Below are positions 1-49,781 of a DNA stretch of 64,000 bases, piece after piece; within the stretch, counting starts at the first letter, position 1; the number at the start of each line of letters is the position of its first letter. The stretch lies in NCBI RefSeq assembly GCF_030384885.1, contig NZ_CP128613.1; one strand, written 5' to 3'. The DNA is from Escherichia coli (GTDB lineage Bacteria > Pseudomonadota > Gammaproteobacteria > Enterobacterales > Enterobacteriaceae). The position numbers were made by a program, and so were the translations under genes. The notes beneath the pieces are model-generated. The model ran no database searches. It saw only the letters and a list, made by a program, of their open reading frames with translations, and was not told the origin of the DNA.

Positions 1-2324
1 GGGCGATGGAAGCCAAAATTCACAACGGCGCGAAGCTGATTGTGATCGATCCTCGCTTTACGCGTACGGCGGCGGTGGCTGACTACTATGCCCCTATTCG
101 TTCCGGTACTGACATTGCTTTCCTGTCAGGCGTATTGCTGTACCTGCTGAACAATGAAAAATTCAACCGCGAATACACCGAAGCCTATACCAACGCCAGC
201 CTGATCGTGCGTGAGGATTACGGCTTTGAAGATGGCCTGTTCACCGGCTACGACGCGGAAAAACGCAAGTACGATAAATCCAGCTGGACCTACGAGCTGG
301 ACGAAAACGGCTTCGCCAAACGCGATACCACGCTGCAACATCCGCGCTGCGTGTGGAACTTGCTGAAACAGCACGTTTCCCGTTATACGCCAGATGTGGT
401 TGAAAACATCTGTGGCACGCCGAAAGACGCGTTCCTGAAAGTCTGCGAATACATCGCAGAGACCAGTGCTCACGATAAAACTGCCTCGTTCCTTTACGCG
501 CTCGGCTGGACGCAACACTCCGTTGGTGCGCAGAACATTCGTACGATGGCGATGATCCAGCTACTGCTCGGCAATATGGGGATGGCAGGCGGCGGCGTTA
601 ACGCCCTGCGCGGTCACTCCAACATTCAGGGGCTGACGGACCTGGGGCTGCTGTCGCAGAGCCTGCCAGGTTACATGACGCTGCCAAGCGAGAAGCAGAC
701 CGATCTGCAAACCTACCTTGCCGCCAATACGCCGAAACCGCTGCTGGAAGGCCAGGTTAACTACTGGGGCAATTACCCGAAATTCTTCGTCTCCATGATG
801 AAGGCCTTCTTTGGTGATAAAGCGACGGCAGAAAACAGCTGGGGCTTTGACTGGTTGCCGAAGTGGGATAAAGGCTACGACGTCCTGCAATACTTCGAGA
901 TGATGAAAGAGGGCAAGGTCAATGGCTATATCTGCCAGGGCTTTAACCCTGTTGCCTCATTCCCGAACAAAAACAAAGTGATCGGTTGTCTGTCGAAACT
1001 GAAGTTCCTCGTCACTATCGACCCGCTGAACACTGAAACCTCTAACTTCTGGCAGAACCACGGTGAGCTGAACGAAGTGGACTCGTCGAAGATCCAGACC
1101 GAAGTGTTCCGTCTGCCATCGACCTGCTTCGCGGAAGAGAACGGTTCAATCGTTAACTCCGGTCGCTGGTTGCAGTGGCACTGGAAAGGTGCGGACGCCC
1201 CAGGGATTGCGCTGACTGATGGCGAGATCCTCTCCGGTATCTTCCTGCGCTTGCGCAAGATGTACGCCGAACAGGGTGGCGCGAACCCGGACCAGGTGCT
1301 GAACATGACCTGGAACTACGCCATCCCGCATGAGCCGAAGTCGGAAGAAGTGGCGATGGAGAGCAACGGTAAGGCGCTGGCCGATATTACCGATCCGGCA
1401 ACCGGGGCGGTTATCGTCAAGAAAGGCCAACAACTTAGCTCGTTCGCCCAACTGCGCGATGACGGTACCACCTCCTGTGGCTGCTGGATTTTCGCCGGTA
1501 GCTGGACGCCAGAGGGCAACCAGATGGCACGCCGTGATAACGCCGATCCGTCTGGCCTCGGTAACACGCTGGGCTGGGCATGGGCATGGCCGCTTAACCG
1601 CCGCATTCTGTATAACCGCGCCTCCGCAGATCCGCAGGGTAACCCGTGGGATCCGAAGCGTCAGTTGCTGAAATGGGACGGCACCAAATGGACCGGCTGG
1701 GATATTCCGGACTACAGCGCAGCGCCTCCGGGCAGTGGCGTCGGGCCGTTTATCATGCAGCAGGAAGGCATGGGGCGTCTGTTTGCCCTCGATAAGATGG
1801 CGGAAGGTCCGTTCCCGGAACACTACGAGCCGTTTGAAACGCCGCTGGGAACTAACCCACTGCATCCAAACGTTATCTCGAACCCGGCGGCGCGAATCTT
1901 TAAAGACGATGCCGAAGCATTGGGTAAAGCCGATAAGTTCCCGTATGTCGGAACCACCTATCGTCTGACCGAGCACTTCCACTACTGGACCAAACACGCG
2001 CTGTTGAATGCGATTTTGCAGCCAGAGCAGTTTGTGGAAATCGGGGAGTCGCTGGCGAATAAACTTGGCATTGCCCAGGGCGATACCGTGAAAGTCTCCT
2101 CCAACCGTGGCTATATCAAAGCCAAAGCGGTGGTGACCAAACGTATTCGTACGCTAAAAGCGAACGGCAAAGATATCGATACCATCGGTATTCCGATTCA
2201 CTGGGGCTATGAAGGTGTTGCGAAAAAAGGCTTTATTGCCAACACGTTAACGCCATTCGTTGGTGATGCGAACACGCAGACGCCGGAGTTTAAGTCCTTC
2301 CTTGTGAATGTGGAAAAGGTGTAA
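1..2324 (+). CDS. fdoG: Formate dehydrogenase-O major subunit, C-terminal ~772 aa; 5' end lies outside the window
   Basis: ORF 6..2324 is open to the window start; translation matches the molybdopterin oxidoreductase large subunit and is followed by fdoH-fdoI-fdhE. The Sec (TGA) codon would be upstream of the window. Confidence 0.93.
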   Translation, partial: AMEAKIHNGAKLIVIDPRFTRTAAVADYYAPIRSGTDIAFLSGVLLYLLNNEKFNREYTEAYTNASLIVREDYGFEDGLFTGYDAEKRKYDKSSWTYELDENGFAKRDTTLQHPRCVWNLLKQHVSRYTPDVVENICGTPKDAFLKVCEYIAETSAHDKTASFLYALGWTQHSVGAQNIRTMAMIQLLLGNMGMAGGGVNALRGHSNIQGLTDLGLLSQSLPGYMTLPSEKQTDLQTYLAANTPKPLLEGQVNYWGNYPKFFVSMMKAFFGDKATAENSWGFDWLPKWDKGYDVLQYFEMMKEGKVNGYICQGFNPVASFPNKNKVIGCLSKLKFLVTIDPLNTETSNFWQNHGELNEVDSSKIQTEVFRLPSTCFAEENGSIVNSGRWLQWHWKGADAPGIALTDGEILSGIFLRLRKMYAEQGGANPDQVLNMTWNYAIPHEPKSEEVAMESNGKALADITDPATGAVIVKKGQQLSSFAQLRDDGTTSCGCWIFAGSWTPEGNQMARRDNADPSGLGNTLGWAWAWPLNRRILYNRASADPQGNPWDPKRQLLKWDGTKWTGWDIPDYSAAPPGSGVGPFIMQQEGMGRLFALDKMAEGPFPEHYEPFETPLGTNPLHPNVISNPAARIFKDDAEALGKADKFPYVGTTYRLTEHFHYWTKHALLNAILQPEQFVEIGESLANKLGIAQGDTVKVSSNRGYIKAKAVVTKRIRTLKANGKDIDTIGIPIHWGYEGVAKKGFIANTLTPFVGDANTQTPEFKSFLVNVEKV

Positions 2325-2336
2325 CGGAGACGACAT

Positions 2337-3239
2337 ATGGCTTATCAATCTCAAGATATCATTCGTCGTTCCGCGACTAACGGTCTGACCCCCGCGCCTC
2401 AGGCGCGGGACTTCCAGGAAGAAGTGGCGAAACTCATCGACGTCACCACCTGTATCGGCTGTAAAGCCTGTCAGGTGGCGTGTTCAGAGTGGAACGACAT
2501 TCGCGATACCGTCGGCAATAACATTGGGGTGTACGACAACCCCAATGATTTAAGCGCCAAATCGTGGACGGTAATGCGCTTCTCGGAAGTGGAGCAGAAC
2601 GACAAACTGGAATGGCTGATCCGCAAAGACGGCTGTATGCACTGTTCCGATCCAGGCTGCCTGAAAGCGTGCCCGGCGGAAGGAGCAATTATTCAGTATG
2701 CCAACGGTATCGTCGACTTCCAGTCCGAGCAGTGCATCGGCTGCGGTTATTGCATTGCGGGCTGTCCGTTCGACATTCCGCGCCTCAACCCGGAAGACAA
2801 CCGCGTCTACAAATGTACACTGTGCGTTGACCGCGTGGTGGTTGGGCAAGAACCGGCCTGTGTGAAAACCTGCCCGACGGGGGCGATTCACTTCGGTACG
2901 AAAGAGTCGATGAAAACGCTGGCGAGCGAGCGCGTGGCTGAGCTGAAAACCCGTGGTTACGACAATGCGGGTCTGTACGATCCGGCAGGCGTGGGTGGTA
3001 CGCATGTTATGTACGTGCTGCACCATGCTGACAAGCCAAATCTGTATCATGGCTTGCCGGAGAACCCGGAAATCAGCGAAACCGTGAAGTTCTGGAAAGG
3101 CATCTGGAAACCGCTCGCGGCTGTTGGCTTTGCGGCTACCTTTGCGGCCAGTATCTTCCACTACGTGGGTGTCGGTCCGAACCGTGCGGATGAGGAAGAG
3201 AATAATCTGCACGAAGAGAAAGACGAGGAGCGCAAATGA
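2337..3239 (+). CDS. fdoH: Formate dehydrogenase-O iron-sulfur subunit
   Basis: 300-aa ORF with multiple CxxCxxCxxxCP 4Fe-4S ferredoxin motifs and a C-terminal TM anchor; position between fdoG and fdoI. Confidence 0.95.
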
Positions 3240-3871
3240 AACGACGTGACACCATCGTGCGCTACACCGCGCCGGAACGTATCAACCACTGGATCACCGC
3301 CTTCTGCTTCATCCTGGCGGCGGTGAGCGGGCTGGGCTTTTTGTTCCCTTCCTTCAACTGGTTGATGCAAATCATGGGCACACCGCAGCTGGCGCGCATT
3401 CTGCACCCGTTTGTCGGCGTGGTTATGTTTGCCTCGTTCATCATCATGTTTTTCCGTTACTGGCATCACAACCTAATCAATCGGGATGATATCTTTTGGG
3501 CGAAGAATATTCGTAAGATCGTCGTCAACGAGGAAGTAGGTGACACCGGGCGTTATAACTTCGGTCAGAAATGCGTTTTCTGGGCGGCGATTATTTTCCT
3601 GGTCCTGCTGCTGGTGAGCGGTGTGATTATCTGGCGTCCTTATTTTGCGCCTGCTTTCTCAATCCCGGTGATCCGATTCGCGTTAATGCTGCATTCATTT
3701 GCCGCAGTGGCGTTAATTGTGGTTATCATGGTGCATATCTACGCCGCCCTTTGGGTGAAAGGCACGATTACCGCCATGGTGGAAGGATGGGTTACCAGCG
3801 CCTGGGCGAAGAAACATCACCCACGCTGGTACCGTGAGGTCCGCAAGACAACGGAAAAGAAAGCTGAATGA
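3236..3871 (+). CDS. fdoI: Formate dehydrogenase-O cytochrome b556 subunit
   Basis: 211-aa hydrophobic ORF whose start overlaps the fdoH stop (translational coupling); conserved operon position. Confidence 0.93.
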
Positions 3872-4797
3872 GTATTCGCATAATCCCGCAAGATGAGCTG
3901 GGTTCGAGCGAGAAACGTACGGCGGATATGATTCCGCCGTTATTGTTCCCTCGGCTCAAAAATTTATACAACCGCCGCGCTGAACGTCTGCGCGAGCTGG
4001 CAGAAAATAATCCGCTGGGTGATTACCTGCGTTTTGCTGCGCTTATCGCCCACGCCCAGGAAGTGGTGCTGTACGACCATCCGCTGGAGATGGATCTGAC
4101 CGCGCGCATTAAAGAAGCCAGCGCACAAGGCAAGCCACCGCTGGATATTCACGTTTTGCCGCGTGATAAGCACTGGCAAAAGCTGCTGATGGCAATGATT
4201 GCTGAGCTGAAACCTGAAATGAGCGGCCCGGCGCTGGCAGTGATTGAGAATCTGGAGAAGGCATCAAGCCAGGAGCTGGAAGATATGGCCAGCGCACTGT
4301 TTGCCTCTGATTTCTCGTCCGTCAGCAGCGATAAAGCGCCGTTTATCTGGGCTGCACTGTCACTCTACTGGGCGCAGATGGCCAATCTGATCCCGGGCAA
4401 AGCCCGCGCTGAATACGGCGAACAACGTCAATATTGCCCGGTTTGTGGTTCTATGCCGGTGTCCAGTATGGTGCAAATTGGCACCACTCAGGGTCTGCGT
4501 TACCTGCACTGCAACCTGTGTGAAACTGAATGGCACGTAGTGCGCGTAAAATGCAGCAACTGTGAACAGAGCGGCAAACTGCATTACTGGTCGCTGGATG
4601 ACGAACAGGCCGCGATTAAAGCCGAAAGCTGCGATGACTGCGGCACTTACCTGAAGATTCTTTATCAGGAAAAAGAGCCGAAAGTTGAAGCCGTGGCAGA
4701 TGACCTCGCCTCTCTGGTACTGGATGCGCGAATGGAGCAAGAAGGCTACGCCCGCAGTTCCATTAACCCGTTCCTGTTTCCGGGTGAAGGGGAGTAA
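3868..4797 (+). CDS. fdhE: Formate dehydrogenase formation protein FdhE
   Basis: 309-aa ORF with paired CxxC motifs ([27 protein letters not shown]); overlaps the fdoI stop. Confidence 0.93.
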
Positions 4798-4979
4798 TCT
4801 CTGACGTTTTCCGGGTGGCGCAGGTCGCCCGGATTACAGTTGATAGGGTATGACGACACCATCTCTCGTATTCCGCGTTACCCATTCAAGACCATGCTGT
4901 TAGTGCCTGTTTGGCCTCATTCTTCCCGCCAACACATCGATAAGGTTATTGGTATGTCACTGATGACAAGCGTAAGATT

Positions 4980-5083
4980 GCCTGATGCGCTGCGCTTATC
5001 AGGCCTACCAATAAACTGCAATATGTTGAATTTGCACGACTTTGTAGGCAGGATAAGGCGTTCACGCCGCATCCGGCATGAAC
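4980..5083. repeat. REP/BIME palindromic units in the fdhE-yiiF convergent intergenic region
   Basis: Sequences gcctgatgcgctgcgcttatcaggcctac and gtaggcaggataaggcgttcacgccgcatccggcatgaac match the enterobacterial REP consensus. Confidence 0.7.
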
Positions 5084-5127
5084 AACTCGCACGTTGTCAG
5101 CAATCTGATTGATATCATTTTTTCCCA

Positions 5128-5346
5128 TTACCATTCCTCGCGCAGCTTACGCTGGTATTCGACACCATCTTCCTCACATCCTTGCCAGATGCCAAAAGCA
5201 CTGGTTCTTGCTGTTTGCGATTGATTTACCTGGTATTGATCTACCGCTTCCCGTAATAATTCCGCACGAGGAAGATTACACTGCACCTCAAGATCATCAA
5301 GTTGCTTAATCACCTCATTCGATAAATCGAGTAAAATTCTGCCCAT
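5128..5346 (-). CDS. yiiF: Ribbon-helix-helix (CopG-like) small protein YiiF, ~72 aa
   Basis: The 80-aa ORF contains [22 protein letters not shown]...; the internal ATG at 5346 gives the 72-aa form and sits ~7 nt downstream of a GGCAGG Shine-Dalgarno-like stretch. Paralogous to yiiE. Confidence 0.75.
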
Positions 5347-5455
5347 ATCCATACCTGCCAGAGAGTTCATAAATATCTCGCCAATATCATTTTGAATCTA
5401 TGGAGAGAAAAGTACCTTTGTCGAATGCTTAAAGAAAGTGCATTTACGTATCACT

Positions 5456-5499
5456 TTTATTTTTGCGAGGCGTTTTCCAGATATGATGTAACAGTTGCA
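5456..5499 (-). promoter_or_regulatory. Conserved cis-element copy 1 (core ttttgcgaggcgttttccaga), ~110 bp upstream of yiiF
   Basis: The 21-bp core recurs at 5901-5921 and 8021-8041 with 1-2 mismatches. Copies 1 and 2 also share the downstream acagttgca. Function is inferred, not shown. Confidence 0.4.
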
Positions 5500-5586
5500 G
5501 TTATTATAAGTTCAAGTAAAACAACCTTGTATTAATACCAGAATAAGGGCATCTGGTTTTTATATTCAAGAATAAAAAATTTTTTG

Positions 5587-5805
5587 TCATTCCTTATGCT
5601 CCTTACACTGATCATCGACCCCCACTGTCTCCCCCTTTTGCCTGCCTCCCTTTGCTTTACGCACCGGGAATTGCTGACGTTCCAGATATTGCTCTACCGC
5701 TTCGCGTAAAATTGCAGATCGTGAAACCTTACGCCAGCCCCGAAGCTTGTTCAGCCGTTTAATTGCCTCGTCTGATAAATGAAGAAAAACCGTACTCATC
5801 ACCAT
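5587..5805 (-). CDS. yiiE: Ribbon-helix-helix (CopG-like) small protein YiiE, ~72 aa
   Basis: ORF 5587..5835 begins at a TTG; the internal ATG at 5805 is preceded by AAGGTGG (5-nt spacer) and gives MVMSTVFLHLSDEAIKRLNKLRGW... (72 aa). Confidence 0.78.
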   Translation of the reverse strand: MVMSTVFLHLSDEAIKRLNKLRGWRKVSRSAILREAVEQYLERQQFPVRKAKGGRQKGETVGVDDQCKEHKE

Positions 5806-5895
5806 CGCCACCACCTTACATATATCGTTCATCAATGCATGGTGCGAAAATTACGCCGAAAATTTAATTAATAAAAGCTGATTTTTGTATCTTGT

Positions 5896-5939
5896 TTTAT
5901 TTTTGCGAGACGTTTTCCAGAAATAATGCTACAGTTGCA
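5896..5939 (-). promoter_or_regulatory. Conserved cis-element copy 2, ~90-130 bp upstream of yiiE and divergent from the 6054 gene
   Basis: ttttatttttgcgagacgttttccagaaataatgctacagttgca aligns with copy 1 over ~44 bp. Confidence 0.4.
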
Positions 5940-6053
5940 TTCCTTTCAATTATTATTGAAAAACGGTTCAGCTATCGTCAGGGATGATTTACTATTCTTC
6001 ATCAGATGCTGGCGCCCTCACAGGAAAGAAGTGGTAAATAATAAGGATGAGTT

Positions 6054-6593
6054 ATGGATGCCATGAATATGTTTTGCTCAGTAATATTTATTTTCTTTAT
6101 TGGTTTTGCATGGATCTTCGGTTACCTCATCCGCATGATGTACCCGAAAAAAATCAGCGTTTTTACCGCTCCAGGGTTTAGCGGGACCGTTACCCTGCCA
6201 AAAGCAGGAGACTACGCGGTAACTATTACACTCCCACATAATAGCGGCATTGCGTCAAACCTGCCCGGCGCGAGTTTTTATTCAGCGCAATTTAGTATAT
6301 CTACGACTGGTAGGCAGCAAGATATTGCGCTGCAAAGAACAGGGAAGTGGGGAGCTTACTCGTGTAACAAAGATTTCAGTGGCAATAATAGCCATATTAT
6401 TGGCCTGTTTCACTGTCATCAAACTCCGGCAAATTACGACATTATCTGTACTAATCCGGAGGTCATTCACGACACCTATAAAGTGGAGATCATTAACTAT
6501 ATCTCACTTGGAAAACAGATGATGAAAACCATCCCCGGTTGGATCCTTGTTTTTATTGCGATAGGGTTACTTATTATTCCGCAAGTAAGTTAA
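6054..6593 (+). CDS. Hypothetical membrane protein, 179 aa, with N- and C-terminal hydrophobic helices
   Basis: ATG preceded by AAGGATGAG (Shine-Dalgarno); hydrophobic stretches FCSVIFIFFIGFAWIFGYLI and IPGWILVFIAIGLLIIP; AT-rich; followed by a hairpin terminator. No family recognised. Confidence 0.6.
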   Translation: MDAMNMFCSVIFIFFIGFAWIFGYLIRMMYPKKISVFTAPGFSGTVTLPKAGDYAVTITLPHNSGIASNLPGASFYSAQFSISTTGRQQDIALQRTGKWGAYSCNKDFSGNNSHIIGLFHCHQTPANYDIICTNPEVIHDTYKVEIINYISLGKQMMKTIPGWILVFIAIGLLIIPQVS

Positions 6594-6623
6594 TGGCAGA
6601 GATGACTGCACTGCATCCATCGC

Positions 6624-6660
6624 AGACCGGTCAGTGCTGCCACCAACCGGTCTTTAATTT
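6624..6660 (+). terminator. Candidate intrinsic terminator after the 179-aa membrane protein gene
   Basis: Hairpin agaccgg-N16-ccggtct followed by ttaattt. Confidence 0.45.
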
Positions 6661-6939
6661 CTAGTAGTAGTAAATTTGCGGATAACAGTCCGGGAACCAG
6701 ACGATTCCTTGCGGATCATCCCCCTGCATTACCCGATAACATTGGCGTCGATCATCGGCACGACGGCGAAGCGTAGTGTAGAGCCGCTTCCATTCATGAT
6801 CGCCCGGTGTACTGTAGTTTACCCAACAATCCATTGAAGGATGACGCCATTTACCTGTGAGTGTTGGGATCCCTGAATGCTTATGCGGCTTCGCTTTACC
6901 ATTACGATCCCGGTCTTTACGCGTATTAAATGTGGACAT
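6661..6939 (-). CDS. Hypothetical protein, 92 aa
   Basis: ATG at 6939 is preceded on the minus strand by GCAGGAG (strong Shine-Dalgarno); no family recognised from sequence. Confidence 0.5.
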   Translation of the reverse strand: MSTFNTRKDRDRNGKAKPHKHSGIPTLTGKWRHPSMDCWVNYSTPGDHEWKRLYTTLRRRADDRRQCYRVMQGDDPQGIVWFPDCYPQIYYY

Positions 6940-7000
6940 TTTTAGTCTCCTGCTAAGAGTTCTAAAAATGTGCTTCCTTAAAATAGTTCATCATTTTCCC

Positions 7001-7213
7001 TTAATTCGAATAGCGTGCTTTTGCACGAATTTCCGATACGCGGGGACCATTATGATAACGTCGATGTCCACACATCCAACAAGAGCACATACAGGGAGTA
7101 CGAAAGCAAACACCTGATGCTTTTTTGCTTCCATCGCCTGCTGTGCGATAACGACGGCGGATTTTTTTTAATCGCGCCATATGATGGCGACGTTCAGCAC
7201 GATTACGGGTCAT
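7001..7213 (-). CDS. Hypothetical small basic Cys-rich protein, 70 aa (CxxxxCxCxCxxC)
   Basis: ATG at 7213 with a CAGGAG Shine-Dalgarno that lies inside repeat copy A; Arg/Lys-rich N-terminus and a Cys cluster. Could be a spurious GC-rich ORF. Confidence 0.35.
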   Translation of the reverse strand: MTRNRAERRHHMARLKKIRRRYRTAGDGSKKASGVCFRTPCMCSCWMCGHRRYHNGPRVSEIRAKARYSN

Positions 7214-7219
7214 AGCAAT

Positions 7220-7317
7220 ACTCCTGAGCAGGCGGCACTATGCCGCTTTCATAGGAGTTCTGAATGCTGGTGCTTTCTGTATGGCATAACCATGCCTCTA
7301 ACGGTTAAGTGCTTGCA
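7220..7317. repeat. 98-bp direct repeat, copy A
   Basis: About 94% identical to 9037-9134 in the same orientation; contains nested inverted repeats (ctcctg...caggag and gcggca...tgccgc). Overlaps the last codons of the HigA-like gene. Confidence 0.85.
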
Positions 7318-7588
7318 GCACATGTTGCGGATCATTGGCAATCGCTCGCAGCAAAGCCTTTGCAGGCCCGGTCGGTGAACGCCGCCCCTGCTCCCAGTTA
7401 CGCAACGTGTCTACGCTTACGGAAATAAGATCGGCAAATTTAGATTGTGACAACCCTGAAGCACGGCGTATTTCTTTGATTTTCATAGCATCAACTTCAA
7501 AAGTCCGTGAAGGCTGTCGCGTTCCTTCAATAATTTCATTCATCTGGGCCATGCTGTGAGTCAACCGCTCAAAAAGTGCCTTATCCAT
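7298..7588 (-). CDS. HTH (XRE-type) antitoxin, HigA-2-like
   Basis: 96-aa ORF with a helix-turn-helix segment (IKEIRRASGLSQSKFADLISVSVDTLRNWEQGRRSP), immediately downstream of and abutting the toxin-like ORF. Confidence 0.8.
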   Translation of the reverse strand: MDKALFERLTHSMAQMNEIIEGTRQPSRTFEVDAMKIKEIRRASGLSQSKFADLISVSVDTLRNWEQGRRSPTGPAKALLRAIANDPQHVLQALNR

Positions 7589-7900
7589 TTACCACCTCGT
7601 ATTTAACAACCGGAGCATTGCTTTTTCCTGGGGAGACAGATCATCTTTAATACCCTTACGATAAATAAGCAGTAATCTGATCTCATAATGTTTAACCTGA
7701 TGAAAGTAAATAACCCTGACACCAGCACGTTTCCCCTTTTCTCCTGAGACCCATCGAACCTTTCTTAACCCACCAGTTTCAGGTATTACCTCACCGTAGT
7801 CAGGATTCAAGGCCAGGAAAAACTGAAAACGACTGAATTCATCGTCATTCAGCAGTTTTTGAACATCTTCTGGGAAAATTTCCGTTTCGATGAAGAGTAT
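7589..7900 (-). CDS. HigB-2/Gp49-family (RelE-superfamily) toxin-like ORF; no canonical start codon upstream of the conserved N-terminus; possible pseudogene or non-canonical start
   Basis: Called ORF 7589..7810 starts at a TTG. The frame stays open upstream to a stop at 7943-7945 and encodes ...VILFIETEIFPEDVQKLLNDDEFSRFQFFLA..., which resembles this family's N-terminus, but with no ATG/GTG/TTG. The 7900 boundary (an ATA codon) is a guess. Confidence 0.6.
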   Translation of the reverse strand: MLFIETEIFPEDVQKLLNDDEFSRFQFFLALNPDYGEVIPETGGLRKVRWVSGEKGKRAGVRVIYFHQVKHYEIRLLLIYRKGIKDDLSPQEKAMLRLLNTRW

Positions 7901-8015
7901 AACTGTACGCCATTGGCTTAGAGTAACAATCCTTTTTGTACGTCATTGACGTACCCCTGAAACCACTAGCTTACTGATAGTGCTACAGCAAAACCACGTC
8001 TCTGCCGAGTTTGTC

Positions 8016-8041
8016 TTTACATTTGCGAGGCGCTTTCCAGA
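8016..8041 (-). promoter_or_regulatory. Conserved cis-element copy 3 (tttacatttgcgaggcgctttccaga) in the divergent region between the toxin gene and the esterase gene
   Basis: Matches the core of copies 1 and 2 with 2 mismatches over 21 bp; flanks diverge after ccaga. Confidence 0.4.
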
Positions 8042-8086
8042 TTTTCCACGCCCGTGAATTTCCCTGTATCCATCCAGTAAAAACGG

Positions 8087-18115: not shown

Positions 18116-19357
18116 ATGAAATGGTTTAACACCTTAAGTCACAACCGTTGGCTGGAACAGGAAACCGATCGCATCTTTGATTTTGGTAAAAATTCCGTAG
18201 TACCGACTGGCTTTGGCTGGTTAGGCAATAAAGGGCAAATCAAAGAAGAGATGGGCACCCATCTGTGGATCACCGCCCGTATGTTGCACGTGTATTCCGT
18301 TGCTGCGGCGATGGGTCGACCTGGCGCTTACTCGTTGGTTGATCATGGTATCAAAGCCATGAACGGCGCACTGCGCGATAAAAAATATGGCGGCTGGTAT
18401 GCCTGTGTCAATGACGAGGGCGTGGTGGATGCCTCCAAACAGGGCTATCAACATTTCTTTGCCCTGCTGGGTGCCGCCAGTGCCGTCACAACGGGTCACC
18501 CGGAAGCGCGTAAGCTGCTCGATTACACCATTGAAATTATCGAGAAATACTTCTGGAGCGAAGAAGAGCAGATGTGCCTGGAATCCTGGGACGAAGCCTT
18601 CAGCAAAACCGAAGAGTACCGCGGCGGCAATGCCAATATGCACGCGGTGGAAGCTTTCTTGATTGTTTATGACGTAACGCATGACAAAAAATGGCTGGAT
18701 CGCGCGATTCGCGTGGCTTCCGTCATTATCCACGACGTCGCCAGAAATAATCATTATCGCGTTAACGAGCACTTCGATACCCAGTGGAATCCGCTGCCGG
18801 ATTACAACAAAGATAACCCGGCGCACCGCTTCCGCGCATTCGGAGGCACGCCGGGCCACTGGATCGAATGGGGCCGTTTAATGCTGCATATCCACGCTGC
18901 CCTGGAAGCCCGTTGCGAACAGCCTCCGGCCTGGTTGCTAGAAGATGCCAAAGGTCTGTTCAACGCTACCGTGCGCGATGCCTGGGCGCCCGATGGTGCC
19001 GACGGGATTGTTTATACCGTTGACTGGGAAGGCAAACCGGTGGTCCGCGAACGTGTGCGTTGGCCTATCGTCGAAGCGATGGGTACAGCTTATGCGCTCT
19101 ACACCGTTACCGGCGATCGCCAGTACGAAACCTGGTATCAGACATGGTGGGACTACTGCATTAAGTACCTGATGGACTATGAAAATGGTTCCTGGTGGCA
19201 GGAGCTGGATGCGGACAATAAGGTCACCACCAAAGTCTGGGACGGTAAACAGGATATTTATCACCTGCTGCATTGCCTGGTGATCCCGCGTATCCCGTTA
19301 GCGCCAGGCCTGGCTCCGGCAGTTGCGGCGGGTCTGCTGGACGTGAATGCCAAATAA
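18116..19357 (+). CDS. yihS: Sulfoquinovose isomerase (N-acyl-glucosamine 2-epimerase fold)
   Basis: 413-aa ORF; conserved position. Confidence 0.9.
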
Positions 19358-19475
19358 CTGACTGAAAACCCTAACCCTCTCCCCAAAGGGGAGAGGGGAC
19401 CGCCCGGCGCAGTTTTTTGGTTTGACATCAGCCTCATGGGAGGCTGTATGCCGTTTTTTAATTAAGGTGCCTCGT

Positions 19476-20378
19476 ATGCAAATCACCAACATGCATTGCA
19501 GTGGACAAACCGTTTCACTTGCCGCGGGGGATTATCACGCGACTATCGTGACGGTTGGTGCTGGTCTGGCTGAATTAACTTTTCAGGGTTGTCATTTAGT
19601 CATCCCGCACAAACCCGAAGAGATGCCGCTGGCGCATCTGGGTAAAGTGCTTATTCCGTGGCCGAACCGGATCGCCAACGGCTGTTACCGCTATCGGGGA
19701 CAGGAATATCAGTTACCCATTAATGAACATAGTTCAAAAGCCGCTATTCACGGGCTGCTTGCCTGGCGAGACTGGCAAATTAGCGAATTAACCGCCACCA
19801 GCGTTACCCTGACAGCTTTTCTACCGCCCAGTTACGGCTATCCGTTTATGCTGGCTTCGCAGGTTGTTTATTCGCTCAATGCTCGCACGGGCCTTTCCGT
19901 TGAGATCGCAAGCCAGAATATTGGTACTGTGACCGCACCTTATGGTGTGGGTATTCATCCTTATTTAACCTGCAACTTAACATCTGTTGATGACTATCTT
20001 TTCCAGCTTCCGGCAGAACAGGTTTATGCCGTCGATGAGCACGCAAATCCGACAACGCTTCACCACGTTGATGAGCTGAATTTAAATTTCACGCGGGCGA
20101 CAAAAATAGCCGCGACAAAAATAGACCATACCTTTAAAACCGCTAATGATCTGTGGGAAATGACCATTACCCATCCACAGCAGGCACTTTCGGTGAGTCT
20201 TTGTTCCGATCAACCCTGGGTGCAGGTTTATAGCGGCGAAAAATTACAGCGTCAGGGACTGGCAATTGAACCTATGAGTTGCCCGCCTAACGCCTTTAAT
20301 TCCGGCACCGATTTATTATTACTGGAACCAGGAAAAACGCATCGCCTGTTTTTTAATATTCACGGGCAGCACAATTAA
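19476..20378 (+). CDS. yihR: Aldose-1-epimerase-family mutarotase
   Basis: Internal ATG at 19476 preceded by AAGGTG; ~300 aa. Confidence 0.85.
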   Translation: MQITNMHCSGQTVSLAAGDYHATIVTVGAGLAELTFQGCHLVIPHKPEEMPLAHLGKVLIPWPNRIANGCYRYRGQEYQLPINEHSSKAAIHGLLAWRDWQISELTATSVTLTAFLPPSYGYPFMLASQVVYSLNARTGLSVEIASQNIGTVTAPYGVGIHPYLTCNLTSVDDYLFQLPAEQVYAVDEHANPTTLHHVDELNLNFTRATKIAATKIDHTFKTANDLWEMTITHPQQALSVSLCSDQPWVQVYSGEKLQRQGLAIEPMSCPPNAFNSGTDLLLLEPGKTHRLFFNIHGQHN

Positions 20379-39819: not shown

Positions 39820-40452
39820 TTGACTAATTTGAATTATCAACAGACGCATTTTGTGATGAGTGCGCCTGATATTCGCCACCTACCTTCCGATACCGGAATT
39901 GAAGTGGCTTTTGCAGGCCGTTCCAACGCAGGTAAATCCAGCGCGCTGAACACGCTGACTAACCAGAAAAGCCTGGCGCGGACCTCAAAAACCCCAGGGC
40001 GCACCCAGCTTATCAACCTGTTTGAAGTGGCTGACGGCAAGCGTCTGGTTGACCTGCCCGGCTATGGCTACGCGGAAGTCCCGGAAGAGATGAAGCGCAA
40101 ATGGCAACGCGCGCTCGGCGAATACCTCGAAAAACGTCAGAGCCTGCAAGGCCTGGTGGTACTCATGGATATTCGCCATCCGTTGAAAGACCTCGATCAG
40201 CAGATGATTGAGTGGGCGGTAGACAGTAATATCGCCGTACTGGTGCTGCTGACCAAAGCGGACAAACTGGCAAGCGGCGCACGTAAAGCACAATTGAATA
40301 TGGTGCGTGAAGCAGTGCTGGCGTTTAACGGTGATGTGCAGGTTGAAACGTTCTCTTCGCTGAAGAAGCAAGGCGTGGACAAGCTGCGGCAGAAACTGGA
40401 TACCTGGTTTAGCGAGATGCAGCCTGTCGAAGAAACGCAGGACGGCGAATAA
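39820..40452 (+). CDS. engB: Ribosome biogenesis GTPase EngB/YsxC
   Basis: TTG start; G1 motif GRSNAGKSS; 210 aa. Confidence 0.93.
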
Positions 40453-40469
40453 TTTTCTTGCCTTAATGC

Positions 40470-40555
40470 TTGTGCCGGATGTGGCGTATCCGGCCGGTAA
40501 ATTCAATAGATTACGATTCTACCGTTGGCCTGATAAACATGGCGCATCAGGCATT
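40470..40555. repeat. REP-like palindromes / terminator region downstream of engB
   Basis: gccggatgtggcgtatccggcc and gcctgataaacatggcgcatcaggc. Confidence 0.55.
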
Positions 40556-40577
40556 ACAGATCTTTTCTTTCGCCCAA

Positions 40578-40686
40578 TAAAAAACGCCCCAGTCATTACT
40601 GACTGGGGCGGCTAAAATATTCAGCCAAATCCGATTACGTGAAGTAAAAGGTCTGAAAGATAGAACATCTTACCTCTGTACCCTAC
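40578..40686 (-). ncRNA. spf: Spot 42 small RNA
   Basis: Reverse complement reads GTAGGGTACAGAGGTAAGATGTTCTATCTTTCAGACC...CCCCAGTCAGTAATGACTGGGGCGTTTTTTA; lies between engB and polA. Confidence 0.88.
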
Positions 40687-40833
40687 GCGACTAACTTTAC
40701 TCTTTTTTGTTCAGTTCAGAAAGCATTTTTTGTAATTTTTTTTCAGTTGTTGCATAGGAATTTCTAATAGCCATCACAAAACGTGACAGCTTATGTTGCT
40801 TACTTACGAAAAAAGGGCATGTTCAGGCGAATC

Positions 40834-43620
40834 TTAGTGCGCCTGATCCCAGTTTTCGCCACTCCCCACTTCCACCAGCAACGGCACATCCAGACGGGTA
40901 CAGTTTTCCATCAGTTGATGAATCTGTTTCGCGACGGCATCGACATCATCTTTATGAACTTCAAATACCAGTTCATCGTGTACCTGCATAATCATACGCA
41001 CACGCGGTTGCTCAGCTTGTAACCACGCATCAACGGCAATCATCGCTCGTTTGATAATGTCGGCGGCGGTTCCCTGCATTGGCGCGTTAATGGCTGCACG
41101 TTCAGCCGCTGCACGACGAGCACCATTGCTGGATTTGATATCCGGCAGATACAGACGGCGTCCGTCCAGCGTTTCAACGTAGCCCTGTTCTTTCGCCTGC
41201 GCACGGGTGCGCTCCATATACTCCAGCACGCCTGGGTAGCGTTCGAAGTAAAGGTCCATGTACTTCTGCGCTTCTTTACGTGGAATGTTCAATTGTCGCG
41301 CCAGACCGAAAGCACTCATGCCATAAATCAGACCAAAGTTGATCGCTTTCGCGCTACGACGTTGCTCGCTGGTGACGGTTTCCAGTGGCAAACCAAACAC
41401 TTCTGCCGCCGTAGCCCGGTGGATATCTTTTCCTTCCGCGAATGCGGTCAGCAAGCCTTTGTCACGCGAGAGATGCGCCATAATGCGCAGTTCAATCTGC
41501 GAGTAGTCCGCCGAGACAATCACATAATCCTCTGGCGCAATAAACGCCTGGCGGATACGACGACCTTCTTCGTTACGCACCGGAATGTTTTGCAGGTTAG
41601 GATCGGTTGACGATAAACGTCCCGTTGCGGTTACTGCCTGGTGATAAGAGGTATGTACACGCCCGGTTTTCGGGTTGATCATCAGCGGCAGCTTGTCGGT
41701 GTAGGTCGATTTCAGCTTCGCCAGACCACGATACTCCAGAATCACTTTTGGCAACGGATAGTCCAGCGCCAGTTCTTCCAGTACCTCTTCCGACGTTGAC
41801 GGCGCACCACCCGGCGTTTTCTTCAGCGGTTTAATGCCCTGTTTTTCAAACAGAATGGTTTGTAACTGCTTGGTGGAAGAAAGGTTAAATTCTTCACCTG
41901 CAATTTCATGCGCTTTCTTTTCCAGCTCAGCCAGACGTAGAGTGAGCTCTTCAGAATGATTATGAAGCACTTTCGGATCGATCTTCACACCGTTACGTTC
42001 AATGCGTGAAAGCACCGGCACCAAAGGCATTTCGATATTCTCGAAGACGTTCAACGGCCCTTTGTGTTTTTGCAGATCCGGCCACATTTTCAGATGCAAC
42101 TGCAAGGTGACATCTGCATCTTCGGCGGCGTAACGTCCGGCCTCTTCGAGGGCAATCTGGTTAAAGGTCAGTTGATTTTTGCCTTTACCGGCAATCTCTT
42201 CAAAAGTGATGGTTTTGTGCTTCAACCAACGTTCCGCGAGGCTGTCCATATCGTGACGCCCGGCAACGCTATTGAGAATGTAGGACTCCAGCATGGTATC
42301 AAACGCAATCCCACGTAGTTCAATGCCGTAGTTCGCCAGAATACCGCGATCGTATTTCAGGTTTTGCCCGACCTTCAGCGCCTTTTCATCTTCCAGCAGC
42401 GGTTTTAGCAACTCGAGTGCACGCTCGCGAGAGATTTGATCGGGCGCATCAAGATAATCATGAGCAACTGGAATATATGCCGCTACGCCTGGCTCGATAG
42501 CAAAAGAAAGCCCGACCAGGTTAGCAGAGATGTTATCGAGGCTGTCGGTTTCGGTATCAAATGCAAATACCGGCGCTTTTTCCAGCTTCGCAATCCACGC
42601 TTTCAGTGTTTCTTCATCAAGGATGGTGACGTAGTTGTCATAAGAAATCACCGTTGCCGTCACTTCTGGCGCGTCGTCTGCAACACTGGTTTCCTGCGGC
42701 TTCGCGGCTGGTTTTGCCCCTTTGGCCTGTAACCATTTGCCCGCTTCGACATCAGCAGTCCAGCGTTTGAACTCATACTTTTTGAACAGCCCCAACAACT
42801 CTTCCGCCGCCGGTTGCTGCACTTCCAGTTGTTCACAGGTCAGCTCCAGTTCAACGTCGGTTTTAATCGTCGCCAGCTGGTATGAGAGATAAGCAACTTC
42901 TTTGTTTTGCTCGAGCTTCGCTGCCATTGTTTTCGCGCCACGGAAGCTCAACCCAGCAATTTTTTCTGGCTCGGCATACAGCGTATCCAGTCCGCCAAGA
43001 CCTTGCAGCAATGCCTGCGCGGTTTTTTCACCAACGCCCGGTACGCCAGGGATGTTATCGGAGGAGTCACCCATCAGCGCCAGGAAATCGATGATCAGTT
43101 CTGGCGGCACGCCGTACTTATTCACCACCTCTTCCGGTCCGAGGATGGTATTCGTCATGGTATTGATAAGCGTAATATTTGGCGTCACCAGCTGCGCCAT
43201 ATCTTTATCGCCAGTGCTGATCAGCACCGGACGCCCGGCTTTTTCGGCTTCGCGCGCCAGAGTACCGATAACGTCGTCCGCTTCTACGCCAGAAACCGCC
43301 AGCAGCGGCAGTCCCATCGCTTTGACCATCGCGTGCAGAGGTTCGATTTGTGCTCGCAGATCGTCCGGCATTGGCGGGCGATGTGATTTGTAATGTTCAA
43401 ACAGTTCATCACGAAAGGTTTTTCCCTTGGCGTCAAAGACCACCGCTGCATGCGTCGGTTTATATTGCATGATTAGACTGCGCAGCATGTTGAGGACACC
43501 ATACATCGCACCGGTCGGCTCGCCTGCGCTGTTAGTCAGCGGGGGAAACGCGTGATATGCGCGATAAAGATAAGATGAACCATCTACAAGGATAAGTGGA
43601 TTTTGGGGGATCTGAACCAT
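40834..43620 (-). CDS. polA: DNA polymerase I
   Basis: 928-aa ORF with 5'-3' exonuclease, 3'-5' exonuclease and polymerase domains. Confidence 0.97.
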
Positions 43621-43983
43621 AATGTCCGTGCCTGTTTATCAGATTATGGGTAAAGGATGCCACAGACAGGATGAAAACATGAGTTTTTCACCGCTTTTCG
43701 TGAAAATCTTTTGTAGATCTTCTGGATCGCTCGCAAATCGTCATGTGGATAACTTTGTGCATAAATTATTTACATCACTTTTAATTTATTATCATGCTTT
43801 TTACAGCATGATGTTTGTCTTTGCTTTTCATACAGTTAAATATAAAGCCATCCCTAATAATTGTGATAATGGGATTTTTTCTAATGTGGATAGATATGAA
43901 TTATTTTTCTCCTTAAGGATCATCCGTTATTTGGGGCGTTTTCTGCTAAAATCGGCGCCTTGCGCTTCTTTAGCGCACTGTCT

Positions 43984-44916
43984 ATGGCTAACCTTTTGAA
44001 TAAATTCATTATGACGAGAATACTCGCTGCGATAACCCTTTTGCTGAGTATCGTATTGACCATTTTGGTCACTATTTTTTGCTCCGTCCCGATCATCATT
44101 GCCGGGATTGTAAAACTATTGCTACCTGTGCCAGTCATTTGGCGAAAGGTTTCGCGTTTTTGTGATTTTATGATGTATTGCTGGTGTGAAAGTCTGGCGG
44201 TATTACTGCATCTGAACCCACACCTGCAATGGGAAGTTCACGGGCTGGAAGGGTTAAGTAAGAAGAACTGGTATCTGCTTATTTGTAACCACCGTAGTTG
44301 GGCAGATATTGTCGTACTGTGCGTGCTGTTTCGTAAGCACATTCCGATGAATAAATATTTCCTCAAGCAGCAGCTTGCCTGGGTGCCATTTCTTGGCCTG
44401 GCATGCTGGGCGCTGGATATGCCGTTTATGAAGCGTTATTCCCGCGCTTATTTATTACGTCATCCGGAACGACGTGGTAAAGATGTTGAAACCACCCGGC
44501 GTTCTTGTGAAAAGTTTCGCCTGCACCCCACCACCATTGTCAATTTCGTTGAAGGCTCCCGTTTCACGCAAGAAAAACATCAGCAAACCCACTCCACTTT
44601 TCAAAACTTGTTGCCACCAAAGGCGGCAGGCATTGCGATGGCGCTAAATGTACTGGGTAAACAATTCGATAAACTGCTTAATGTTACGCTGTGTTATCCG
44701 GACAATAACCGTCAGCCGTTCTTCGATATGTTAAGCGGTAAACTGACGCGAATTGTCGTACATGTGGATTTACAGCCTATTGCCGATGATTTACATGGCG
44801 ACTACATCAATGACAAAAGCTTTAAGCGCCATTTTCAGCAATGGCTGAACTCACTGTGGCAGGAAAAAGACCGACTTCTGACGTCGTTGATGTCATCACA
44901 GCGTCAGAATAAGTAA
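43984..44916 (+). CDS. yihG: Acyltransferase (PlsC-like) family inner membrane protein
   Basis: HxxxxD acyltransferase motif (NHRSWAD); start chosen at the internal ATG. Confidence 0.85.
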
Positions 44917-44956
44917 GTTTTACTCGCCTCTGAATGAGCAGAGGCGAGTGAGTATT

Positions 44957-46387: not shown

Positions 46388-46541
46388 ATAAATATTCCCT
46401 GATAAAACAGCAAAACTTTGAATATCCACTTATGCTGAAATAATGTCCAGCGGCAGGACGCATTATCAGAATGTATTTATATTTATTAAATAATAAAAAA
46501 AGCCCGTGAATATTCACGGGCTTTATGTAATTTACATTGAA

Positions 46542-47168: not shown

Positions 47169-47184
47169 GATCTACTCTCTCCGA

Positions 47185-48171: not shown

Positions 48172-48247
48172 CCCATCATCCGGAAAACATTACGAATGAT
48201 GAAGGATATCATTTCACGATGATTTTGGTGGCACCGCTTACAAGCTT

Positions 48248-49772: not shown

Positions 49773-49781
49773 CTTGATTTG

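What the first reader, a model, noticed from the sequence alone, without database searches (positions are those of the whole stretch)
7298..7945. HigB-2/HigA-2-type toxin-antitoxin pair in which the toxin lacks any canonical in-frame start codon
The downstream gene (7298-7588, minus) is a clear XRE-HTH antitoxin. The upstream frame encodes a Gp49/HigB-2-like toxin (…LFIETEIFPEDVQKLLNDDEFSRFQFFLALNPDYGEVIPETGGLRKVRW…). Between the stop at 7943-7945 and the TTG at 7808-7810, the 44 in-frame codons contain no ATG, GTG or TTG; the position where homologs usually begin (just before LFIETEIF) is ATA. Either the toxin is inactivated while its antitoxin is retained, or it starts at a near-cognate codon, or it starts at the TTG and loses ~37 N-terminal residues.
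Basis: seen in the sequence. Interest (0 to 1): 0.65.

Follow-up and report, generated by a model that had tools for sequence, protein, structure and literature searches.

The report
Toxin gene with mutated start codon
This E. coli strain carries a widespread HigB-2/HigA-2-type toxin-antitoxin gene pair in which a single G-to-A change turned the toxin's ATG start into ATA, most likely silencing the toxin while its antitoxin stays intact, which is an ordinary form of gene decay that genome annotation hides.

Summary
On the minus strand there is a TGA at 7945-7943, then 44 codons with no ATG, GTG or TTG up to the TTG at 7810, and an ATA at 7900-7898.

The locus is present in about 2,635 of 5,426 complete E. 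coli genomes. Of these, 2,598 have ATG at that codon and 9 have ATA, on two different haplotypes. Homologs in five other enterobacterial genera are 103 aa and start with Met at that position.

The toxin is a clear V. cholerae HigB-2 homolog (E about 1e-17; predicted fold TM 0.84-0.87) and keeps all four catalytic residues. It is not a Gp49/DUF891 protein. The antitoxin (NadS/HigA-2-like) has its own Shine-Dalgarno sequence. A conserved GTACG-N7-CGTAC palindrome matches the footprinted HigA2 operator.

Neither the ATA nor the TTG has a Shine-Dalgarno sequence, and a TTG start would delete β1, α1 and α2. AUA initiates at 0.02-3% of AUG.

The best reading is a start-codon-loss allele that is null or severely weakened, with the antitoxin retained. 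Other lineages lost the toxin through a +G frameshift (133 genomes), a nonsense codon or an IS element. RefSeq annotates the ATA as a start and does not flag it. Interest is low to moderate.

The parts
7298..7588 (-). Antitoxin/repressor gene (nadS, HigA-2-like; 96 aa). The ATG at 7588-7586 follows the toxin's TAA stop directly.
   Evidence: NCBIfam NadS NF041265 scores 60.7 bits against a cutoff of 60. It matches V. cholerae HigA-2 chains at E = 1.8e-8 and Atu1735 (2PPX) at 1.3e-10 over the C-terminal HTH. PGAP names the same protein, WP_000356397.1, in all five genomes inspected. Among eight alleles it has 0 non-synonymous and 5 synonymous polymorphic codons.
7594..7598 (-). Shine-Dalgarno GAGGT for the antitoxin, 5 nt before its ATG and inside the 3' end of the toxin ORF.
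   Evidence: Script scan. The surrounding RNA is less structured than shuffled sequence (z = +2.4), so antitoxin translation should not depend on toxin translation. This last step is inference.
7589..7900 (-). HigB-2-like toxin reading frame: 103 codons plus TAA, otherwise intact, beginning with ATA.
   Evidence: phmmer to V. cholerae HigB-2 structures gives E from 2e-18 to 2e-17, aligning residues 2-99. The AF2 model has pLDDT 84.7 and Foldseek TM 0.84-0.87 to 5JA8/5JA9/5MJE. The catalytic residues R49, R62, Y80 and K82 (VcHigB2 R51, R64, Y82, K84; PMC5416850) are invariant.
7898..7900 (-). ATA at the ancestral ATG start codon. The lesion is a G-to-A change at 7898 on the coding strand.
   Evidence: Alignments A1, A2 and A5. 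In complete E. coli genomes ATG is found in 2,598 and ATA in 9. Met occupies this column in Enterobacter, Cronobacter, Klebsiella, Yokenella and Pseudocitrobacter.
7808..7810 (-). First canonical in-frame start (TTG, codon 31). It is not a natural start.
   Evidence: No homolog begins here. There is no SD within 20 nt. A product from here would lack β1 (2-5), α1 (9-16) and α2 (19-31).
7871..7873 (-). Codon 10, CCA (Pro). It is Thr in the common E. coli allele and in all other enterobacterial homologs aligned.
   Evidence: This is a lineage-specific non-synonymous change at a conserved position.
7739..7741 (-). Codon 54, GAA (Glu), in the basic β2-β3 loop. It is Gly in every other homolog aligned.
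   Evidence: The loop was described as positively charged and ribosome-contacting in VcHigB2 (PMC5416850).
7733..7736 (-). G4 run that is G5 in other lineages, giving a +1 frameshift and a 69-aa product.
   Evidence: The Ecol_743 pseudogene is annotated 'frameshifted'. The G5 allele is present in 133 complete genomes. P0124 from strain SE15 is the corresponding product.
7902..7907 (-). TACAGT. It is TATAAT in the common E. coli allele, so there are two further lineage-specific SNPs just upstream of the start.
   Evidence: In the common allele TTGTTA-16-TATAAT scores 10 of 12 as a promoter, and the window has none above threshold. The hexamer is not conserved in other genera, where SD-like GGA or GGGA sits instead.
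7908..7918 (-). AGCCAaTGGCG, a near-invariant block across six genera. It is a degenerate copy of the operator half-sites and a candidate second operator around the predicted transcription start.
   Evidence: Footprint alignment A4. The role is inferred.
7920..7928 (-). Candidate extended -10 (TGtTACTCT). Hexamer positions A2 and T6 are invariant in all eight sequences, and TG is present in seven of eight.
   Evidence: Alignment A4. This is inference and no transcription-start data were available.
7938..7954 (.). Perfect palindrome GTACGTCA-a-TGACGTAC, the probable NadS/HigA-2 operator. The in-frame TGA at 7945-7943 lies in its right arm.
   Evidence: the repeat finder. It is the only GTACG-N7-CGTAC in 64 kb, against 0.04 expected. 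It is conserved upstream of the toxin in E. coli, Pseudocitrobacter, Cronobacter and Enterobacter and with one change per arm in Yokenella and Klebsiella. Its half-sites and spacing match the footprinted V. cholerae HigA2 operator TGTACGC-N5-GCGTACA (PMC11006873).
8024..8039 (-). Conserved block TGGAAAGCGCCTCGCA, about 125 nt upstream of the toxin start. Its role is unknown and its link to the module is uncertain.
   Evidence: It is conserved in all eight sequences of A4. It occurs three times in the window against 0.11 expected. See the items noticed in passing.

Best explanation
This is a chromosomal higBA-2-type type II toxin-antitoxin operon, with the toxin gene first and the antitoxin second. 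It sits at a conserved enterobacterial position between fabY (yiiD) and yiiE/fdhE.

In its normal form, a 103-aa RelE-fold, ribosome-dependent mRNA endonuclease (HigB-2 family) is made from an ATG that has little or no Shine-Dalgarno. It is neutralised by a NadS/HigA-2-like protein, which also represses the operon by binding a GTACG-N7-CGTAC palindrome at the promoter.

In the window's lineage a single G-to-A transition changed the toxin's ATG to ATA. No other in-frame start is usable and there is no Shine-Dalgarno. Toxin synthesis should therefore drop to at most a few percent of an already weak level, which makes the toxin gene a null or severe hypomorph. The antitoxin has its own GAGGT ribosome-binding site in unstructured RNA, so it should continue to be made and to autoregulate, effectively as an orphan repressor/antitoxin.

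Shown: the homology, the ancestral ATG, the allele frequencies, the conserved operator, and the intact antitoxin. Inferred: the size of the drop in toxin expression, the promoter and transcription-start positions, and the continued role of the antitoxin.
For: - **Ancestral state:** 2,598 complete E. coli genomes have ATG at 7900-7898 and 9 have ATA (alignments). Homologs in five other genera are 103 aa with Met at that column, and V. cholerae HigB-2 starts two residues earlier.
- **Family:** HigB-2 structures match at E about 1e-17. The AF2 model has TM 0.84-0.87 and rmsd 1.2-2.1 Å to HigB2. The four catalytic residues are conserved. The antitoxin matches NadS and HigA-2.
- **Operator:** the palindrome has the half-sites and spacing of the footprinted VcHigA2 operator.
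- **Loss of initiation:** there is no SD within 20 nt of the ATA or the TTG, while the antitoxin has GAGGT at 5 nt in unstructured RNA. AUA, AUC, AUU and CUG initiate at 1-2%, 0.1-3% and 0.02-3% of AUG in three reporter systems that used a designed RBS (bioRxiv 10.1101/063800).
- **A TTG product** would lack β1, α1 and α2.
- **Signs of relaxed constraint in this lineage:** T10P and G54E fall at positions conserved in all other homologs, and a sister allele has P10L. The antitoxin has 0 non-synonymous and 5 synonymous polymorphic codons.
- **Toxin loss with the antitoxin kept recurs at this locus:** a +G frameshift in 133 genomes, a Q26 nonsense, an IS1 insertion (H11) and other truncated products. 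nadS is still annotated or called intact in each case.
Against: - Apart from the start codon the ORF is intact and keeps every catalytic residue.
- The exact product is recorded on about 400 contigs with no further decay seen, although this may simply mean the clone is young.
- The same G-to-A change sits on two different haplotypes. That could reflect selection for a weak start rather than random loss.
- AUA does initiate measurably, and RelE-type toxins are potent, so a residual trickle could matter biologically.
- No transcription, translation or toxicity data exist for this locus.
- My allele sample for the constraint comparison was deliberately enriched for damaged toxins.
Confidence: 0.8

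Rival explanations
1. ATA is a functional, very weak start codon. The toxin is still made at about 0.02-3% of the ATG level, and this dimmed expression is biologically meaningful and possibly selected. It would lower the cost of the module while keeping some toxin activity.
For: The near-cognate AUA initiates at 0.02-3% of AUG in E. coli. The ORF and the catalytic tetrad are intact. The identical ATG-to-ATA change occurs on two haplotypes that differ at about 20 of 811 sites, including SNPs 5 and 7 nt from the codon. The allele is carried by about 400 contigs. PGAP accepts it as a start.
Against: There is no SD to recruit ribosomes to a poor codon, and the reporter figures come from a designed RBS. 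The ATA is derived and rare, at 9 of about 2,635 locus carriers, not conserved as infC's AUU is. The window lineage also carries T10P and G54E at otherwise invariant positions. G-to-A transitions are the commonest mutation, and any loss-of-function change appears tolerated here, as the 133 frameshifted genomes show. Two hits on one base are therefore not strong evidence of selection.
Confidence: 0.13
2. Translation starts at the TTG at 7810 and yields a 73-aa N-terminally truncated but active toxin.
For: It is the first canonical in-frame start. Some annotators have called this 73-aa product in start-less alleles (P0122).
Against: No homolog starts there; all are 103 aa or longer. There is no SD. 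The product would lack β1, α1 and α2 of the RelE fold. In VcHigB2, α2 also contacts the antitoxin's globular domain (PMC5416850).
Confidence: 0.02
3. The missing start is an artefact. Either the A at 7898 is a sequencing or assembly error, or the true start is the out-of-frame ATG at 7913-7911, joined to the toxin frame by a frameshift (mutational or programmed).
For: An ATG lies 13 nt upstream in another frame. One database product (P0010) is such a frameshift fusion.
Against: The same ATA allele is found in independent assemblies. The common allele has an in-frame ATG at 7900, so no frameshift is needed. The 7913 mini-ORF is not conserved, being only two codons long in Yokenella and Klebsiella and in a different register in Enterobacter. 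The ATG at 7913 lies inside the conserved operator-like block, which explains its conservation as DNA. A fusion from it would replace β1.
Confidence: 0.02

Closest known systems
Vibrio cholerae HigB-2/HigA-2 (VCA0468/VCA0469; PDB 5JA8, 5JA9, 5JAA, 8A0X; Pfam PF06296 'RelE')
   Same: Toxin-first operon. The toxin is 36-40% identical and has the same predicted fold (TM 0.84-0.87). The catalytic residues Arg/Arg/Tyr/Lys are conserved. The antitoxin has a C-terminal XRE-HTH similar to HigA-2 (E = 1.8e-8). The operator has the same GTACG half-sites and 7-nt spacing.
   Different: It sits at a fixed, syntenic core-genome position in Enterobacteriaceae rather than in a superintegron cassette. The antitoxin's N-terminal 30 residues show no detectable sequence similarity to the HigA-2 disordered region. 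Only two of the four base-contacting residues are kept (N64 and R69; D60 and R63 replace Arg68 and Glu71). In this allele the toxin start codon is ATA.
E. coli K-12 RelE/RelB
   Same: RelE-type fold, and by inference from VcHigB2, ribosome-dependent mRNA cleavage. Foldseek matches have TM 0.5-0.57.
   Different: Opposite gene order, a different antitoxin class (RelB is RHH-type), about 10-12% sequence identity, and a different Pfam family (K-12 RelE is in PF05016, per the preprint read).
E. coli K-12 HigB/HigA (YgjN/YgjM; PDB 5IFG) and Proteus Rts1 HigBA
   Same: The name, the toxin-first order, and an HTH antitoxin.
   Different: A different toxin family. The Foldseek match is negligible (E = 1.0, TM 0.40). 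According to PMC5416850, Rts1 HigB lacks helix α3 and has a different active site.
Toxin genes decayed beside a retained antitoxin
   Same: Toxin inactivated with antitoxin intact. The window holds a second example: yiiF is 75% identical to an RHH antitoxin whose PIN toxin partner survives here only as fragments.
   Different: The lesion here is a single base in the start codon. The ORF looks intact and RefSeq annotates it as a normal protein.
Genuine non-AUG starts in E. coli, for example the AUU start of infC (from my own knowledge)
   Same: A near-cognate AUN codon at the start position.
   Different: The infC AUU is conserved and is part of an IF3 feedback loop. The ATA here is derived, rare (9 of about 2,635 carriers) and has no Shine-Dalgarno.

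Membership tests
HigB-2 toxin family (Pfam PF06296 'RelE') | Significant sequence similarity to the founding member, V. cholerae HigB-2 | tested here: met
   phmmer E from 2e-18 to 2e-17 over residues 2-99.
HigB-2 toxin family (Pfam PF06296 'RelE') | Match to the Pfam PF06296 profile at family threshold | tested here: inconclusive
   This sequence scores only E = 0.022, 15.4 bits. Several close homologs carry precomputed PF06296 hits, mostly marked weak. NCBIfam has no model that matches.
HigB-2 toxin family (Pfam PF06296 'RelE') | RelE-type fold with order β1-α1-α2-β2-β3-β4-α3 | tested here: met
   AF2 pLDDT 84.7 with exactly these elements. The top 11 Foldseek PDB hits are all HigB2 chains, with TM up to 0.87. 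This is a predicted structure.
HigB-2 toxin family (Pfam PF06296 'RelE') | Catalytic residues equivalent to VcHigB2 Arg51, Arg64, Tyr82 and Lys84 | tested here: met
   R49, R62, Y80 and K82 are invariant in alignment A3.
HigB-2 toxin family (Pfam PF06296 'RelE') | Ribosome-dependent mRNA cleavage and growth inhibition | not testable with these tools
   No experimental data were found for the E. coli protein.
Functional type II toxin-antitoxin module | The toxin is expressed, which requires a usable initiation codon and ribosome-binding context | tested here: not met
   ATA replaces the ATG, there is no ATG, GTG or TTG for 44 codons, and no SD lies near the ATA or the TTG. Residual near-cognate initiation cannot be excluded.
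Functional type II toxin-antitoxin module | An adjacent, co-oriented cognate antitoxin gene with autoregulatory DNA binding | tested here: met
   The TAA and ATG are directly adjacent. The antitoxin is intact with its own SD. A HigA2-type operator palindrome is conserved upstream. Actual binding is inferred.
NadS family (NCBIfam NF041265) / HigA-2-like antitoxin | Score above the curated NCBIfam cut-off | tested here: met
   60.7 bits against a cutoff of 60, so it passes only narrowly. PGAP names it NadS in all genomes inspected.
NadS family (NCBIfam NF041265) / HigA-2-like antitoxin | Disordered N-terminal toxin-neutralising segment followed by a C-terminal HTH dimerisation and DNA-binding domain | tested here: inconclusive
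   The C-terminal HTH (residues 31-89) aligns to HigA-2. Residues 1-30 show no detectable similarity, and neither disorder nor toxin binding was tested.
   The Pfam-A scan at E up to 10 lists only RelE PF06296 and DUF7073.
Known anti-phage defence systems (PADLOC-DB 2.0) | The toxin or antitoxin matches a defence-system model | tested here: not met
   The toxin has no hits. The antitoxin has only generic HTH hits.

The most novel reading that the evidence does not exclude
ATG-to-ATA is not decay but a recurrent adaptive 'dimmer'. Two E. coli lineages independently converted the HigB-2 start to the same near-cognate codon. Each kept an intact, catalytically competent ORF expressed at roughly 1% of normal, so the module stays functional (for example for stress or phage responses) at a much lower cost.
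Probability: 0.1. Interest if true: 0.55.

Novelty: new member of a known kind. Interest (0 to 1): 0.25.

Why it matters
- **Function:** strains with this allele probably lack an active HigB-2-type toxin. Inventories that count TA systems from annotation will overcount it.
- **Annotation:** PGAP/RefSeq accepts ATA as the start and issues ordinary protein records (WP_032269392.1, WP_000897305.1), so the start-codon loss is not visible. One of these records has already been used as the example E. coli HigB2 in a 2025 preprint.
- **Evolution:** the locus is old, syntenic and uncharacterised. Its toxin has been knocked out repeatedly by different mutations while the antitoxin stays invariant. That makes it a convenient natural series for asking why antitoxins outlive their toxins.

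None of this changes how TA systems are understood.

Tried and rejected
- **Frameshift from the out-of-frame ATG at 7913.** This was my first idea from reading the sequence. I rejected it because the common allele has an in-frame ATG at 7900 and the 7913 mini-ORF is not conserved.
- **Sequencing error.** Rejected, because independent assemblies share the allele.
- **Window from a cryptic Escherichia clade.** I inferred this from about 96% identity over 1-20 kb. I withdrew it because 40-60 kb is about 99% identical to ordinary E. coli. The divergence is local.
- **Shared transposase beside the hydrolase as evidence that the two ATA haplotypes share ancestry.** Rejected, because that structural variant is common: 1,961 genomes cover at least 80% of the 20-kb query.
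- **TTGTTA-16-TATAAT directly before the ATG as the operon promoter.** It scores 10 of 12 in the common allele. However, it would start transcription inside the first codons, and the hexamer is not conserved in other genera. I kept it only as a possible E. coli-specific internal promoter.
- **Rho polarity on nadS when the toxin ORF is untranslated.** The ORF has more G than C (76 G, 51 C) and no C-rich window, so this is unlikely.
- **Database searches that found nothing.** Rfam found nothing between 7000 and 8300. PADLOC had no toxin hit. NCBIfam had no toxin model.
- **Literature searches.** Searches for 'NadS', 'NadS family' and yiiE/yiiF found nothing relevant. No experimental paper on the E. 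coli module was found.
- **Second HigB-2 or NadS copy in the window.** None was found.

Full report
**Observation.** On the minus strand the toxin frame reads TGA (7945-7943), then 44 codons without ATG, GTG or TTG, then TTG at 7810-7808. The frame continues to TAA at 7591-7589, and the ORF listing picks the same TTG. The codon before LFIETEIF is ATA at 7900-7898. The antitoxin ORF (7588-7298, 96 aa) follows the toxin stop directly. By my own estimate a 44-codon stretch without a canonical start has a chance probability of about 0.11. The observation therefore matters only because of the homology. The coordinates are right. Relative to the homologs' start, a TTG start removes 30 residues, not about 37.

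**What the two genes are.** The toxin frame, modelled from the ATA, matches solved V. cholerae HigB-2 chains at E from 2e-18 to 2e-17 over residues 2-99. An AlphaFold model built on 14 homologs has mean pLDDT 84.7 and the element order β1(2-5) α1(9-16) α2(19-31) β2(46-51) β3(60-68) β4(73-81) α3(90-102). Its 11 best PDB matches are all HigB2 chains, with TM up to 0.87 and rmsd 1.2-2.1 Å for the free-toxin entries. RelE proteins follow, and E. coli K-12 HigB (5IFG) is a non-match at TM 0.40. Mutagenesis in V. cholerae defined Arg51, Arg64, Tyr82 and Lys84 as the active site (PMC5416850). These correspond to R49, R62, Y80 and K82 here, and all four are invariant in my alignment. Pfam gives only a weak PF06296 match (E = 0.022) and no Gp49/DUF891 match, and NCBIfam has no matching model. 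The antitoxin reaches the NadS equivalog cut-off narrowly (60.7 against 60 bits). Its C-terminal HTH aligns with HigA-2 (E = 1.8e-8) and with Atu1735.

**The ancestral start.** The locus is present in about 2,635 of 5,426 complete E. coli genomes. Short queries whose 28-base seed must span the codon found ATG in 2,598 genomes and ATA in 9. The common allele reads TATAATTATGCTC and the window reads TACAGTTATACTC. Homologs in Enterobacter, Cronobacter, Klebsiella, Yokenella and Pseudocitrobacter are almost all exactly 103 aa. Every one aligned has Met at the window's ATA column, and V. cholerae HigB-2 starts two residues earlier. The module is syntenic in these genera, lying between fabY and fdhE and usually beside the same α/β-hydrolase. 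It is therefore old and vertically inherited.

**Two origins.** One of the nine ATA genomes (2013C-4282) is identical to the window. The other eight (S51, NCTC10444, an O78 strain and others) carry TATAATTATA. The S51 type differs from an ATG haplotype (HM670) at about 7 of 811 sites and from the window at about 20, including SNPs 5 and 7 nt from the codon. Two independent mutations are the most parsimonious reading. A conversion tract would have to be shorter than 5 nt on one side. The window allele is not an error. An independent draft assembly has the same sequence, and the exact product is recorded on about 400 contigs. I first thought the window came from a cryptic clade, because 1-20 kb is only about 96% identical to other E. 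coli. However, 40-60 kb is about 99% identical, so the divergence is local.

**Regulatory anatomy (partly inferred).** Aligning the upstream region from six genera shows four features:
- A perfect palindrome, GTACGTCAaTGACGTAC (7954-7938). Its GTACG-N7-CGTAC half-sites and spacing equal those of the footprinted VcHigA2 operator TGTACGC-N5-GCGTACA (PMC11006873).
- A near-invariant AGCCAaTGGCG (7918-7908), which resembles a degenerate second site.
- A candidate extended -10, TGtTACTCT (7928-7920). Its A2 and T6 positions are invariant, and it predicts a transcription start near 7914-7913 and a leader of about 13 nt.
- No conservation of the TATAAT just before the E. coli ATG. Cronobacter and Klebsiella have SD-like GGA or GGGA there.

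Of the four HigA2 base-contacting residues, two are kept (N64, R69) and two differ (D60, R63).

**Consequences of the ATA.** No SD-like sequence lies within 20 nt of the ATA or the TTG. The antitoxin has GAGGT 5 nt before its ATG, in RNA that folds less well than shuffled sequence (z = +2.4). In E. coli reporters with a designed RBS, AUA, AUC, AUU and CUG initiate at 1-2%, 0.1-3% or 0.02-3% of AUG, depending on the construct (bioRxiv 10.1101/063800). A TTG product would lack β1, α1 and α2. The most likely outcome is a toxin that is silent or reduced by about two orders of magnitude, with antitoxin synthesis and autoregulation unaffected. The ORF has more G than C, so Rho polarity on nadS is unlikely.

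**Population context.** Toxin loss with the antitoxin retained recurs at this locus:
- A +G frameshift in the G-run at 7736-7733 is present in 133 complete genomes.
- A Q26 nonsense allele exists.
- An IS1 insertion exists (H11).
- Several other truncated or fused products are on record, from strains such as SE15, 536 and MS 200-1.

nadS is annotated or called intact in every such case examined, and WP_000356397.1 is identical in the five genomes inspected. Among eight alleles the antitoxin has 5 synonymous and 0 non-synonymous polymorphic codons. The toxin has 4 synonymous and 5 non-synonymous, but this sample was enriched for damaged toxins. In the window lineage the two amino-acid changes, T10P and G54E, hit positions that are conserved in every other homolog aligned. 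A sister allele carries P10L. This is consistent with relaxed constraint, though the numbers are small.

**Annotation.** PGAP starts the CDS at the ATA in 2013C-4282 (WP_032269392.1) and in S51 and NCTC10444 (WP_000897305.1) without flagging a pseudogene. A 2025 preprint uses WP_032269392.1 as 'HigB2 toxin from E. coli APEC179' in a structural superposition. Annotators that do not allow ATA have called the 73-aa TTG product instead.

**Verdict.** This is a start-codon-loss allele of an uncharacterised but recognisable E. coli HigB-2/HigA-2 (NadS) module. The toxin is most likely null or severely weakened, and the antitoxin is retained. The possibility that the ATA is a selected weak start is not excluded (about 0.1) and can be tested with reporters, ribosome profiling and nadS deletion. 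This is a new member of a known kind in a decayed state. Its interest is low to moderate, mainly for the recurrence of the mutation and for the hidden annotation problem.

Noticed in passing
window 8041-8015, 5921-5895 and 5481-5455 (all minus strand): A motif of about 30 nt, TCTGGAAA(A/G)CG(C/T)CTCGCAAA…, occurs three times against 0.11 expected. Each copy lies 95-125 nt upstream of a small TA-type or DNA-binding gene (higB2-nadS, yiiE, yiiF). The copy upstream of the toxin is conserved in six genera, including those without the hydrolase. Its GG-N10-GC spacing resembles a sigma-54 -24/-12 element (9 of 12 to TGGCACG-N4-TTGCA). Its function is unknown.
   Followed up: partly
window 5370-5128 (yiiF), 5835-5587 (yiiE), 4930-4837: yiiF is 75% identical to a Pseudocitrobacter RHH antitoxin that is paired with a PIN toxin, and yiiE is a 45%-identical paralog. 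Downstream of yiiF only short PIN fragments remain (PIN residues 100-124 at 60% identity, E = 0.001). This is a second decayed toxin beside a retained antitoxin in the same neighbourhood.
   Followed up: partly
window 7733-7736 (G-run in toxin codons 55-57): This G4 run is G5 in 133 complete E. coli genomes, giving a 69-aa frameshifted toxin (SE15 type). It is by far the commonest toxin-inactivating allele I counted.
   Followed up: yes
L002 3191-3502; L004 and L005 1513-1824: PGAP/RefSeq annotates the ATA as a start codon and issues normal protein accessions (WP_032269392.1, WP_000897305.1) rather than flagging a pseudogene. WP_032269392.1 is used as the E. coli HigB2 example in bioRxiv 10.1101/2025.01.28.635273.
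   Followed up: yes
window 1-20000 compared with 40000-60000: The first 20 kb (fdoG to yihS, including the TA locus) is only about 96% identical to all E. coli except strain 2013C-4282 (99.7%). By contrast, 40-60 kb is about 99% identical to many strains. This is a locally divergent, possibly recombined, segment.
   Followed up: partly
window 7902-7929; L003 3162-3189: In the common E. coli allele, TTGTTA-16-TATAAT (10 of 12) ends 1 nt before the toxin ATG. It would start transcripts inside the first toxin codons, which suggests a possible antitoxin-only promoter. The window's TACAGT weakens it below the scan threshold. The hexamer is not conserved in other genera.
   Followed up: partly
window 7001-7213 (minus): This is a 70-aa basic, Cys-rich ORF (MTRNRAERRHH…TPCMCSCWMCGHRR). 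It is annotated hypothetical (WP_000197771.1) in 2013C-4282 but has no CDS annotated in HM670 or Ecol_743.
   Followed up: no
window 9206-11119 (minus): This is a single 637-aa ORF between the hydrolase and fabY. In 2013C-4282 the same stretch is annotated as a truncated hypothetical pseudogene plus a 915-nt transposase gene. This insertion variant is common among E. coli.
   Followed up: no
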